A stretch of 64,000 bases of DNA. Origin: Octopus sinensis (Eukaryota). The stretch is from assembly GCF_006345805.1 (NCBI RefSeq), contig NC_042998.1, forward strand, positions 197,222,001 to 197,286,000, written 5' to 3'. The position numbers were made by a program. Positions within the stretch are counted from its first letter, which is position 1. Every line of letters begins with the position of its first letter. This document shows positions 1-63,451 of this stretch, piece after piece.

Positions 1-3000
1 GTAAAAGAGTAAATATCAGAAAACACCTGGTGGAGAAGAAAAGGAAACAAAAGAAATATTAGAAGCAGATATGCTTTGTGTAATATTCTACAGGAAATTA
101 TGATTCTTTCCGCAAAATTTATGCATATTTAAATTTTAGAATATTCTAGAGCCTGTGTTTAATCTTGTTTTCATATTTATAAATACAATATTTTGTTAGA
201 AAATGTTAGGAAGGTAGAGTTTTACAGAGTGTTGATTATGTATAAACTACAGCATAATATTCAAGATGTATCATACAGGGTACAGTAGAGATGAGGACAT
301 GGTGTATTTGAGATATACAGAAGACATATATTTTACTAGCAGTATCGCCCGGTGTTGCTCGGATTTGTAAAGGAAATAACTATATAAACATTTTTAGAGA
401 GTTACTTCCCTTATATAACCCGAGCAAAAATCATTAAAAATGCGGAAAAATGATGGTAAATTTTTTTTTTTAATCGTAGACTCATCGTAGATGCGCGCTA
501 ATACCCAGAAGGGCTCGATATGAATGACGACTATAAGATACCCGCTTTTGGTTAAACTGCACCGCAAAATGTGGGAGTAGTTAGGAATCTAAATCAGAGG
601 AGACAGAGTCTCACACACACAACTTCAATTTTATATATATTTTATGTACACGGTGTGTTGCATCATCATCATTGTTCGACCGTGGTCAAGACAATGGAAT
701 TTACTATGTTACACCAGACTTCACGGTCCATCATAGCATTACGGAGGTCCTGTTGCTGGATGCTTGTATCCCTGGAGATTACATCAGGGTAGGAAAGTCT
801 ACGCCCTCTGATATCACGAGTAGATGGGTTCCAGAGAAGAAGAGTAGAAATTACCTCGTTTTCACCTCTACAACAATGTCCAGCAAACTGGACTCTTCTA
901 CCTTTCACAAGAGATGATACAGGTGGTAATTTCCCATATATTTGTACTTTGGTTGGATGACGCTTCCACGAGAGATTTTGAGCTCTCATAAGGAGGTGAG
1001 TGTAAGTTCCATCCAACTGCCTCTCAAGCTTCTTTGATAACGTCCAGGTTTCTGAGCCACATAGTAAAATTGGTTCGACTGTGGCTTTGAAGATTTTAAG
1101 TTTGAAATCTCTACTTAGATTTGATGACCAAATCTTATGAATTTCATTACAGGCTGACCAGGCCATATCCTTTCTACTTAGAAAATCTTTTTCAGAGGAT
1201 GATATGTATGACCCAAGATATTTGTATTCAGAAACATATTTAAGAGTGTGTTGCAATGTAAACATAATGTTAGGTGAAGTGAGTATAGTACAGTATTGAG
1301 TTCAAGTTATCTGAGTTAGAACATGTTGTATGAGGCTTAGCTTAGATTGGGAGTGAAAGTTTGTTCTGTTGAGCCCAGTGGGTCTGATAGAAATTATTTT
1401 GTCCATTTGAATATTTTGTCCATTGTATTCTATTTCTTAAGTTTCTGTGGAGAAAGACAAAACTGCTGCTGAAAAAGAAGAAGAGAAAGAAGTAGAAAGA
1501 AGAGAAAGAAAAATAGGAAAGAAAGAAAGTGTGGAAAAAGGAATGGTATTGGGTGAGAAAAAAGGTATGTTTAATATGATATATATATTCTATTGAAAAA
1601 CTTTACTTGTGAAGACCTGTTGAAGCAGTGAAAATCAAAATCGTAATCAATCAACATTAATGGAATTTGTAGCTGTGATACCAGTGCCGGTGGCACGTAA
1701 GAGAACCATCTGAACGTGGCCGTAGCCAGCGCTGCCCTGACTGGCCTCCGTACCAGTGGCACGTAAAAAGCACCATCTGATCTTGGCTGTTGCCAGCCTC
1801 GTCTGGTCTCCGTGCCAGTGGCACGTAAAAAGCACCGACCGGTCATGGCCATTTGCCAGCCTCGTCTGGCACCTGTGCCGGTGGCACGTAAAAAGCACCC
1901 ACTACACTCACGGAGTGGCTGGTGTTAGGAAGGGCATTCAGCTATAGAAACACTGCCAGATCATACTAGAGCCTGGTGCAGCCTCCTGGTTTCCCAGACC
2001 CCAGTTGAACTGTCCAACCCATGCTAGCATGGAAAGCGGACGTTAAACGATGATGGTGATGATGTAAAGCATCATAAAATATCTTTAAAGAACAGAAATC
2101 AGCCAGCTTCATGTTGTTTTCCTATCAGCGTGGAATGGAATTATTGATGTAGTGAAGATACAGATGTAGAATTATCCCTAATGCTCTTGACATGCATTGC
2201 ATATAAAGTCAATGACATGTGATAGAGATTGATAGATATTGAGGCTTGGTACAACTTTTTATGGATATAGCCTCCTTGACTGGCTTTGCCGCCTTGACTG
2301 GCTTCTGTGTCGGTGGCACGTAAAAACCACCGACCGATCATGGCCGTTCCAGCCTCCCCTGGCACCTGTGCCGGTGGCACGTAAAAAGCACCAACTACAC
2401 TCACAGAGTGGTTGGAATTAGGAAGGGCATCCAGCTGTAGAAACACTGCCAGATCAGACTGGAGCCTCGTGCAACCTCCATGGCTTACCAGGCCCCGGTC
2501 GAACCGTCCAACCCATGCTAGCATTGAAAACAGGCGTTAAACGACGATGATGATGATCATCATCATCACTGCTTTGAAAGAATTGCTATGTAGCCCTCTT
2601 CGTGAAGGACTTTTATGTTAAGTGGTGCAAATTCTCTGAGTATCATCCCAACTTATTTTTAGAATGACATTGTAGGGTCGGAGTGAGAGGCTGGATCTAA
2701 CCAGTTTGAACATTAAACAGGTTGAATAATTTGACTGGACTATGGCCAGTTTAAATGTCAAAAGATTAAATTTTGAAATCTTTTAATATGTTAGTAGAAT
2801 CCATGGTAGCTTCATAGTTTGTGGATGATGTATGTACTACAGAATGACATTATGCTTTCTTTTGTAACATTGATATTTCAGTGACATGATTACTTAATTT
2901 TAGAATGACATTGTAGGGTTGGAGTGAGAGGCTGGATCTGGCTGGCTAGTTTGAAGATGTTATTTGTGGTGTTCTGTAGAGTATAGTATATGCTGTCATT

Positions 3001-62100: not shown

Positions 62101-63451
62101 GTTCAGTCTCACTGCGTGGCACCTTGGGCAAGTGTCTTCTACTATAGCCCCGGGCCGACCAATGCCTTGTGAGTGGATTTGGTAGATGGAAACTGAAAGA
62201 AGCCTGTCGTATATATGTGTATGTGTTTGTGTGTCTGTGTTTGTCTCCCAAGCATTGCTTGACAACCGATGCTGGTGTGTTTACGTCCCCGTCACCTAGC
62301 GGTTCGGCAAAAAGAGACCGATAGAATAAGTACTGGGCTTCCAAAGAATAAGTCCCGGGGTCATTTGCTCGACTAAAAGGTGGTGCTCCAGCATGGCCGC
62401 AGACAAATGACTGAAACAAGTAAAAGAGTAGGGAGTATACCGGTTCCGAGCCAGGTGTTGTTTCATGCTGAGGGAACAAACAGGGCCAAATCAGGAGTTT
62501 AGGAACGGTGATCAACCAATTCAAAGCCACAGTCATGCAGTCAGAGAAAAAAACAGAAAGAAGCACTATGTGACCATAAAACTGCTCTAATTCTTTAATT
62601 TTGTTGCATTAAAAAAAAAAAATTCTCTGGTTCTAATGTTAATCAAGGTAGTATTGTCTTATTTTACGAGTATTTGTGCTTTCTTTTTTGTAAAACTTTA
62701 ATAATATAACTGTTGTTGGTGCTGTGATGGTTATTTTTTCTCTTTAGTATCTCCAGTAAGCTTTACGCTAATAAGTAGCTCACAGATCCAGAAACCAGTT
62801 TACTCAGTATTATGCTAGAAGAAGCATAACTGCAACACTAATATCTTGTGTGATGTCCAGTATAAAAATGAGGGTATGTGTGGTGTATACTTACACGACT
62901 GATATGTTGTGTGGTGTACGGTATGTAAATTAGAAAAGGTATGCGGCATACGATGAAAAAGATGTCTTATTTTGTAGTTTGGATTAAAAATTTGTATAAG
63001 GTCGGGTGCTGTGTGATGCTCTAAACATTTAGTATTGAATACAAGATGGCAATCAAGATTATCTTGGATCAAAAGTGATAATCCCTGAAAGTAATACCTG
63101 TAATTAAGCAGGCGTTAGTAAAAACCTCTTGCAAAAGAAATGAAGCATACAGAAGAAAAAGTCACAGGTGTGTTTAATATATGATTTACATACTTCTTAT
63201 TACAATGGAATGTATACAGCTTATATATACTCTTACTCTCTTTACTCTTTTACTTGTTTCAGTCATTCGACTGTGGCCATGCTGGAGCACCGCCTATAGT
63301 CGAGCAAATCGACCCCTGGACTTATTCTTTGTAAGCCCAGTACTTATTCTATTGGTCTCTTTGGCCGAACCACTAAGTGACGGGGATGTAAACACACCAG
63401 CATCGGTTCTCAAGCAATGCCTGGGGGACAAACACAGACACACAAACACAT

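What the first reader, a model, noticed from the sequence alone, without database searches (positions are those of the whole stretch)
1442..63167. Hidden array of 15 symmetric phase-1 mini-exons encoding a titin-PEVK-like disordered region
Seen: 15 AG...GT units of 123, 93, 114, 162, 165, 139, 147, 135, 114, 42, 84, 75, 75, 63 and 59 nt. Thirteen are multiples of 3 with no stop in the phase-1 frame, all end in G, and length differences between intact paralogues are in-frame. Established: vertebrate titin PEVK is built from many short in-frame cassette exons (PPAK and E-rich types) whose inclusion tunes spring length. Inference: this is part of a very large invertebrate gene with a combinatorially spliceable Glu/Lys-rich tether; any subset of exons keeps frame. 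Identity (titin/twitchin-like, neurofilament-tail-like or lineage-specific) cannot be read from this window.
Basis: partly seen in the sequence, partly recalled or inferred. Interest (0 to 1): 0.85.

Follow-up and report, generated by a model that had tools for sequence, protein, structure and literature searches.

The report
Tandem array of in-frame cassette exons
A run of duplicated short exon-like units, all keeping the same reading frame and coding for a glutamate/lysine/valine/glycine-rich stretch, very probably belongs to an unidentified animal gene; this layout is already known from spring and tether proteins.

Summary
Nine (1442-20501) are paralogous copies inside a duplicated ~1 kb segment. 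Three sequence results favour real coding exons.

- Junctions are the best-conserved part: 88% identity for the last 20 intron bases and 94% for the first 20, against 56-62% deeper in the flanks.
- In-frame indels: 10 of 11 gap events inside the unit are multiples of 3, against 3 of 19 in the flanks (Fisher p=9e-5).
- Only phase 1 is stop-free in all 13 units whose length is a multiple of 3.

Units 12 and 13 share the family's junction motifs. Units 10, 11 and 14 do not rise above chance candidates. Unit 15 and paralogue u6 are out of frame.

Evidence against: pN/pS is 0.85 in the proposed frame, so residues show no purifying selection. No related protein turned up. No transcript data could be consulted.

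The peptide passes a published PEVK+A content threshold but is only 2.6% proline. Titin membership, gene size, disorder and combinatorial splicing are untested. I rate it a new member of a known kind, of moderate interest.

The parts
1442..1564 (+). u1, 123-nt phase 1-1 exon candidate, the most diverged paralogue
   Evidence: AG/GT bounded and stop-free only in phase 1. Carries both family junction motifs. Passes the strict filter.
3193..3285 (+). u2, 93-nt paralogue
   Evidence: Upstream pyrimidine fraction is 0.68, just under the strict cut; it is listed.
6808..6921 (+). u3, 114-nt paralogue
   Evidence: Donor is GTAAGT.
8669..8830 (+). u4, 162-nt paralogue, the most acidic (net charge -17)
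15092..15256 (+). u5, 165-nt paralogue with a GEGEK-type core. Mosaic: upstream flank like u4/u9, downstream like u6-u8
   Evidence: About 0.84 kb of unrelated sequence lies between 14220 and 15060, just upstream.
16155..16293 (+). u6, 139-nt frameshifted copy (4 extra bases relative to u8), 2 stops in phase 1. Likely a pseudo-exon, unless an assembly error
17171..17317 (+). u7, 147-nt paralogue, middle copy of the ~1015-bp tandem triplet u6-u8
18186..18320 (+). u8, 135-nt paralogue
20388..20501 (+). u9, 114-nt paralogue
24188..24229 (+). unit 10, 42-nt candidate with a strong T-tract acceptor and donor GTACAA. Weak support
   Evidence: Not family-like: acceptor rank 1318 and donor rank 555 of about 128,000 positions. 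Passes only the filter that gave 59 rows on + and 38 on -.
30137..30220 (+). unit 11, 84-nt candidate. Moderate to weak support
   Evidence: Donor resembles the family (rank 13), acceptor does not (rank 25861). Passes the filter that gave 25 rows on + and 10 on -. Open only in phase 1.
36304..36378 (+). unit 12, 75-nt exon candidate with the family's acceptor block
   Evidence: Motif hits. Acceptor rank 11. Passes the strict filter. Open only in phase 1.
53979..54053 (+). unit 13, 75-nt exon candidate with the family's acceptor and donor blocks
   Evidence: Motif hits. Acceptor rank 11, donor rank 23. Passes the strict filter. Open in phases 1 and 2.
57230..57292 (+). unit 14, 63-nt candidate. 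Weak support
   Evidence: Not family-like: ranks 8456 and 8356. Passes only the filter that gave 53 rows on + and 35 on -. Open in phases 1 and 2.
63109..63167 (+). unit 15, 59 nt, not a multiple of 3, 1 stop in phase 1. Doubtful as part of the in-frame array
   Evidence: Only the donor resembles the family (exact motif hit; rank 19).

Best explanation
The window holds part of a + strand animal gene in which one short exon, together with its flanking intron, was duplicated in tandem many times.

The copies (u1-u9) are symmetric phase 1-1 cassette exons of 93-165 nt. Each starts after a weak TAAG acceptor preceded by a conserved T-rich block. Each ends in ...AG before a strong GTATGT-type donor, and each is filled with GAR-rich (purine) sequence.

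Read in phase 1, each codes for a basic head, an acidic Glu/Gly/Val core of variable length, and a short Lys tail. Overall composition of the 8 intact paralogues is E 33%, K 17%, V 15%, G 11%.

The array grows, shrinks and reshuffles by unequal exchange between copies. Selection keeps the splice junctions, the reading frame and the bulk composition, but not the individual residues.

Every unit ends in G and has a length that is a multiple of 3. Any subset can therefore be joined without a frameshift or a junction stop, so the length of this charged segment could be set by exon choice.

Shown: the units, their homology, junction conservation, the in-frame indel bias and frame openness.

Inferred: that they are spliced and translated, that exon choice varies, and that the product is an extended spacer, spring or tether.

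Units 12 and 13 are older, diverged relatives or neighbours that use the same junction signals. Unit u6 is a frameshifted copy. Units 10, 11, 14 and 15 are unproven.
For: 1. Junction conservation. Among 7 independent paralogues, pairwise identity is 88% for intron -20..-1 and 94% for +1..+20. It is 76-82% at the exon ends, 69% in the exon core and 56-62% further out. BLAST identities of the older copies over whole units are 67-78%.
2. Indels. 10 of 11 gap events inside the exon are multiples of 3; the exception is u6. Only 3 of 19 in the flanks are, Fisher p=9e-5. Some in-frame indels lie outside the repetitive core, at alignment columns 184-190, 200-203 and 337-343.
3. Frame. Phase 1 is stop-free in 13 of 13 in-frame units. 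Phase 0 has stops in 6 and phase 2 in 11. A TAA sits directly upstream in that frame, so the open frame starts at the acceptor.
4. Motifs. The junction motifs occur 12 and 13 times against 0.88 expected, with no hit on the - strand. They also flank the non-paralogous units 12 and 13.
5. Strand control. The strict generic exon filter gave 9 hits on + and 0 on -.
6. Orientation. All copies are clustered in one orientation, whereas the SINE-like repeats lie on both strands.
Against: - pN/pS among paralogues is 0.85 in the proposed frame, against 0.44 and 0.58 in the two shifted frames. Differences per codon position are 0.256, 0.333 and 0.250, with no third-position excess. Residue-level constraint is therefore not seen, and this test does not pick the frame.
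- The core is a trinucleotide-like purine repeat, so slippage alone could yield some in-frame indels and few stops.
- The acceptors are AAG, which by my recall is a weak form.
- No relative was found. The u7 peptide against proteins of 87-2000 aa gave none at E<=0.001. The profile of 8 exon peptides gave 0 of 1.84 billion representatives. Pfam gave no family at or above its curated cut-off for 9 of 9 peptides; one sub-threshold chance match had E 0.11. The Atlas gave no usable hit.
- One of the nine copies is frameshifted.
- No transcript evidence could be consulted.
Confidence: 0.65

Rival explanations
1. A decaying relic: the units were once cassette exons of a repetitive gene segment but are now mostly skipped pseudo-exons drifting neutrally. 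Their splice-like junctions are still recognisable because the duplications are young or the copies are homogenised by gene conversion.
For: pN/pS is 0.85 with no third-position excess. u6 is frameshifted with 2 stops. No annotated or predicted protein contains these peptides. The mosaic similarity of u5 points to exchange between copies.
Against: 8 of 9 copies keep frame although the older ones have diverged to about 70% identity. Inside the units only 1 of 11 gap events is not a multiple of 3, against 16 of 19 in the flanks. Junctions are far better conserved than deeper flanks within the same copies, which youth or gene conversion of whole units would not produce.
Confidence: 0.15
2. Not exons at all: a non-coding segmental or tandem repeat whose core is a purine-rich trinucleotide-like microsatellite. 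The AG and GT at its edges, the open frame and the in-frame lengths are by-products of composition and slippage.
For: A second frame (phase 0) is also open in 7 of the 9 paralogues. The core is built of GAA/GAG/GGA-type triplets. pN/pS does not favour the proposed frame. No homologue was found.
Against: The most conserved blocks abut exactly AG| and |GT and look like a pyrimidine tract and a U1-complementary donor. In-frame indels also occur in the non-repetitive head and tail. Only phase 1 is open in all 13 units, including the non-repetitive units 12 and 13, which were found by flank motifs independent of frame. The strict filter finds nothing on the other strand.
Confidence: 0.1
3. Real spliced exons that are non-coding, either UTR or lncRNA cassette exons rich in purine splicing enhancers.
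For: Junction conservation without residue-level constraint. GAR-rich sequence is the classical exonic enhancer type (recalled, not tested).
Against: Non-coding exons give no reason for 10 of 11 indels to be multiples of 3, nor for a single frame to stay open in 13 of 13 units.
Confidence: 0.07

Closest known systems
PEVK segment of vertebrate titin (PPAK and poly-E exon array)
   Same: Both are many short tandemly duplicated exons coding a charged low-complexity stretch, with repeat blocks reshaped by duplication and with TE insertions nearby. In mammals PEVK exons average 76-93 nt, and the published finder accepts exons with a PEVK+A ratio of at least 0.54 (PMC6469411, passages read). Here the 8 intact paralogues score 0.68-0.81. 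Skipping a PEVK exon keeps titin in frame (PMC11578113, passages).
   Different: Proline is 2.6% here and glycine 11%, so the peptide is E/K/V/G-rich rather than PEVK. The paralogues are longer (93-165 nt). No sequence similarity to anything was detected. No Ig, FnIII or kinase exon was seen in the window: 10 of the 117 ORFs of at least 90 aa, all on the + strand, were tested and gave 0 Pfam hits. The phase of titin PEVK exons is something I recall only; I found no passage stating it (one search gave 0 papers).
Tropoelastin gene architecture
   Same: [quoted passage not shown] The protein is low-complexity, each domain is one exon, and some regions are replicated.
   Different: Tropoelastin domains are hydrophobic G/V/P-rich or Lys-Ala cross-linking, not acidic. 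It is a vertebrate extracellular protein. No sequence relation was found.
Sallimus (I-band titin) PEVK of Drosophila
   Same: It is an invertebrate spring segment that is removed or kept by alternative splicing according to muscle type (bioRxiv 10.1101/2024.09.30.615857, passages read).
   Different: [quoted passage not shown]
Charged single alpha-helix (ER/K) spacers
   Same: The E/K/R-rich heads and tails (u1 and u2 especially), and the AlphaFold2 single-sequence model of u7 as one helix over residues 17-48, mean pLDDT 76.8.
   Different: Glycine at every third or fourth position of the core argues against a stable helix (inference). The family definition is recalled, not tested.

Membership tests
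Titin PEVK segment | Per-exon P+E+V+K(+A) fraction of at least 0.54 (PEVK_Finder default, PMC6469411) | tested here: inconclusive
   8 of 8 intact paralogues score 0.68-0.81, and units 10 and 14 score 0.71 and 0.62. Units 11, 12 and 13 score 0.43, 0.52 and 0.52 and fail. Proline is only 2.6% in the paralogues.
Titin PEVK segment | Sequence similarity to PPAK or poly-E repeats of known titins | tested here: not met
   The profile of 8 exon peptides against 1.84 billion representatives gave 0 hits at E<=0.001. Pfam gave nothing at or above its cut-offs for 9 peptides. Short low-complexity queries make this a weak test.
Titin PEVK segment | Embedded in a gene with Ig/FnIII domains and a kinase | not testable with these tools
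   Only 64 kb is available. 10 of the 117 ORFs of at least 90 aa (all 10 on the + strand) gave 0 Pfam hits.
Titin PEVK segment | Short exons, tandemly duplicated, skippable in frame | tested here: met
   Lengths are 42-165 nt and 13 of 15 are multiples of 3. Tandem copies are shown. Actual skipping was not observed.
Phase 1:1 cassette-exon architecture (tropoelastin type) | Every exon begins with the 2nd base of a codon and ends with the 1st | tested here: met
   Phase 1 is the only phase open in 13 of 13 in-frame units, and all end in G. This is inferred from open frames, not from cDNA.
Phase 1:1 cassette-exon architecture (tropoelastin type) | Tropoelastin composition (hydrophobic G/V/P/A domains alternating with Lys-Ala cross-link domains) | tested here: not met
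   The composition is E 33%, K 17%, V 15%, G 11%, P 2.6%.
Expressed alternative cassette exons (general) | Spliced reads including and skipping each unit | not testable with these tools

The most novel reading that the evidence does not exclude
The array is the extensible segment of a lineage-specific or titin/sallimus-class giant elastic protein of an invertebrate. That protein would have arrived independently at the vertebrate solution: dozens of symmetric mini-exons whose number sets spring length. Here the chemistry is proline-poor Glu/Gly/Val/Lys. The 15-20-nt intron blocks kept at every junction would act as shared regulatory handles, letting one splicing factor include or skip the whole array.
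Probability: 0.15. Interest if true: 0.6.

Novelty: new member of a known kind. Interest (0 to 1): 0.38.

Why it matters
If these units are spliced as inferred, they give a clean non-vertebrate example of a protein segment whose length can be tuned exon by exon. Selection would be acting on junctions, frame and composition rather than on residues. Arrays of this kind are commonly missed by gene predictors, as PMC6469411 notes for PEVK exons, so flagging them improves annotation. The finding does not open a new question on its own. The gene, the tissue and the splicing pattern all remain unknown.

Tried and rejected
Protein homology
- u7 peptide, 'longer' mode (87-2000 aa): 2240 candidates, none at E<=0.001.
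- Profile of 8 exon peptides against 1.84 billion representatives: 0 hits.
- Pfam on 9 exon peptides: nothing at or above a curated cut-off.
- ESM Atlas on u7: no usable hit.
- Units 10-14 are 14-28 aa, below the 40-aa and 30-aa minimum lengths of the sequence searches. Of these five, units 11-14 were scanned against Pfam; unit 10 (14 aa) was searched nowhere.
- No concatenated peptide was built or searched.

Residue-level selection
- The pN/pS test does not support the proposed frame. I do not use it as support.

RNA structure
- RNAalifold on the 9 units gave a weak consensus of -6.69 kcal/mol, with pairs that are mostly purine core against pyrimidine tract.
- Six single folds gave z-scores of -2.23, -2.16, -1.29, -0.26, +0.12 and +1.79.
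- I reject a conserved hairpin or docking-selector scheme as unsupported.

Other checks
- Rfam at gathering thresholds: 0 matches.
- Organism: the LINE RT ORF matched 1260 proteins at E<=1e-10. The 120 best listed are 51-71% identical; those with an organism name come from a gastropod, an oyster, a shrimp, fishes and amphioxus. The taxon is unresolved, and 'cephalopod' is neither confirmed nor excluded.
- Literature: 'PEVK' + 'cephalopod' gave 1 paper, a muscle-mechanics paper seen in the listing only. 'PEVK' + 'exons' + 'same phase' gave 0. I make no claim that such arrays are unpublished in molluscs beyond these searches.

Not checked
- Genome contigs holds prokaryotes only and was not used.
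- Supplementary files of PMC6469411 (exon tables) and of the two preprints were not seen. They may hold exon phases and lengths that bear on the comparison.
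Full report
The window and the units

The window is 64 kb with no N and about 39% G+C. It is crowded with repeats:
- a SINE-like family on both strands;
- LINE reverse-transcriptase fragments;
- an LTR-type integrase remnant and a mariner remnant;
- several tandem arrays.

All 15 AG...GT units of the finding are present with exactly the stated lengths, all on the + strand. 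Thirteen have lengths that are multiples of 3 and are stop-free when read in phase 1. The 139-nt unit (16155-16293) has two stops in that frame and the 59-nt unit (63109-63167) has one. All 15 end in G.

Units 1-9 are copies of one segment

Self-comparison and alignment show that the nine units between 1442 and 20501 lie inside a duplicated segment of roughly 0.4-0.9 kb of alignable sequence. All copies are in the same orientation.
- u6, u7 and u8 form a triplet spaced 1015-1016 bp apart.
- The tandem block from u5 to u8 is 92-94% identical to itself at one- and two-unit offsets.
- The older copies are 67-78% identical.
- u5 is a mosaic. Its upstream flank is closest to u4/u9 and its downstream intron is closest to u6-u8. 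This points to exchange between copies.

Evidence that they are coding exons

Conservation peaks at the junctions. Among seven independent copies, pairwise identity is:
- 88% over the last 20 intron bases;
- 94% over the first 20 intron bases;
- 76-82% at the exon ends;
- 69% in the exon core;
- 56-62% further out.

The invariant blocks stop exactly at AG| and start exactly at |GT.

Indels respect the frame. Ten of 11 gap events inside the unit are multiples of 3, and the exception is the u6 frameshift. Only 3 of 19 in the flanks are, Fisher p=9e-5. Several of the in-frame events lie in the non-repetitive head and tail.

Phase 1 is the only frame open in all 13 in-frame units. Phase 0 has stops in 6 of them and phase 2 in 11. 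A TAA lies directly upstream of each paralogue in that frame.

A strict generic exon filter returns 9 candidates on the + strand and none on the - strand. The 9 are seven paralogues plus units 12 and 13.

Evidence that cuts the other way

A Nei-Gojobori count over the paralogues gives pN/pS 0.85 in the proposed frame, against 0.44 and 0.58 in the shifted frames. There is no excess of third-position change. Individual residues are therefore not visibly constrained, and this test does not identify the frame.

The core is made of GAA/GAG/GGA-like triplets. Slippage can explain part of the in-frame bias, and the scarcity of T explains part of the open frames.

The acceptors are AAG. I recall that this is a weak form.

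No protein relative was found by any route. These queries are short and low in complexity, and proteins above 2000 aa were reachable only by the profile search. The negative result is therefore weak.

The other six units

Units 12 (36304-36378) and 13 (53979-54053) share no exon similarity with the family but carry its junction blocks.
- Both appear in the two motif searches (12 and 13 hits against 0.88 expected, no hit on the - strand).
- Their acceptors rank 11th of about 128,000 positions under a matrix trained only on the paralogues.
- Both are 75 nt long and open in phase 1.

I accept these two as probable exons of the same gene.

Unit 11 has a family-like donor (rank 13) but an unremarkable acceptor. 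Unit 15 has a family-like donor (rank 19) but is 59 nt long with a phase-1 stop. Units 10 and 14 resemble the family at neither end. Units 10, 11 and 14 pass only relaxed filters that admit 10-38 candidates on the opposite strand. They remain possible but unproven.

What the product would be

In phase 1 the eight intact paralogues encode 351 residues with E 33%, K 17%, V 15%, G 11%, A 6% and P 2.6%. Each has a basic head, an acidic core of variable length and a Lys tail. Net charge per unit runs from +4 to -17.

AlphaFold2 on the u7 peptide alone gives one helix over residues 17-48 with mean pLDDT 76.8. That suggests a non-globular charged rod or coil and does not establish disorder.

Because each unit ends in G, the junction codon is G plus the first two bases of the next unit. 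That codon can never be a stop, and its residue depends only on the downstream unit. Any subset therefore stays in frame. Whether the cell uses that freedom is not known.

Comparison with known systems

The layout matches two known designs.
- The titin PEVK exon array. In mammals these exons average 76-93 nt, they are detected by a PEVK+A ratio of at least 0.54, and the array has been reshaped by duplication and LINE insertion (PMC6469411, passages). Skipping an exon preserves the frame (PMC11578113, passages).
- The uniform phase 1:1 borders of tropoelastin, which permit cassette-like splicing (bioRxiv 10.1101/2024.12.03.626628, passages).

The paralogues pass the PEVK+A threshold (0.68-0.81) but are proline-poor and glycine-rich. 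No sequence link to titin was detected, and no Ig, FnIII or kinase exon was seen in the ten + strand ORFs tested.

[quoted passage not shown] That differs from the present array.

I therefore say that this works like a PEVK or tropoelastin-type cassette array. I do not file it as titin.

Limits

The joined step was left out. Units 10-14 were too short for every sequence search except Pfam; units 11-14 went to Pfam and unit 10 went nowhere.

The organism was not resolved. Transcript data, the surrounding genome, related species and supplementary tables were not available.

Verdict

It is a new member of a known kind, of moderate interest.

Noticed in passing
window 26011-28549: Tandem repeat of a 350-bp unit, 7.2 copies, 97% matches. 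It lies in the long intron-like gap between units 10 and 11.
   Followed up: no
window 51863-52287; 54876-55144; 21433-21984; 29799-30012; 37114-37479; 38673-39463: Further arrays: 24-bp x 17.8, 33-bp x 8.4, 184-bp x 3, a (TAC)n tract of 71 copies, and two long TA-rich tracts.
   Followed up: no
window 57550-58864 and 58853-60168: A 1.3-kb direct tandem duplication, 98% identical, carrying LINE-tail-like ORFs.
   Followed up: no
window e.g. 1750-2064, 22172-22583, 42035-42445, 49403-49805: A SINE-like family of about 270-400 bp with more than 20 copies on both strands, 72-90% identical. Rfam found no family at gathering score.
   Followed up: partly
window 4626-5470 (-), 47556-48641 (-), 52791-53171 (-), 12069-12233 (+), 60975-61097 (+): Transposon remnants. 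RVT_1 matches E 1.8e-16 at 5033-5470 and 2.4e-19 at 47556-48641, with weaker matches at 4626-5093 and 52791-53171. Integrase_H2C2 matches E 9.9e-07, and Mos1-type HTH_48 matches E 1.8e-4, below its cut-off. The best listed relatives of the RT ORF are 55-71% identical and come from various aquatic animals.
   Followed up: partly
window 16155-16293 (u6): u6 has 4 bases more than u8 and so loses the frame. An AG 7 nt inside the unit would give a 132-nt unit (16162-16293) that is a multiple of 3 and stop-free, returning to the family's frame at its 3' end. Eight of the 9 paralogues (all but u1) have this second AG at the same place, within an Arg codon.
   Followed up: partly
window 14220-15060: About 0.84 kb of unrelated sequence interrupts the duplicated segment roughly 30 nt upstream of u5. 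The upstream homology stops at about 14217-14220 and resumes at about 15060.
   Followed up: no
window 1-100, 7813-8355, 10330-10874: A further intronic block is repeated at 94% identity between 7813-8355 and 10330-10874. The first 100 bases of the window translate to a similar peptide, which hints that the duplicated array may continue upstream of the window.
   Followed up: no
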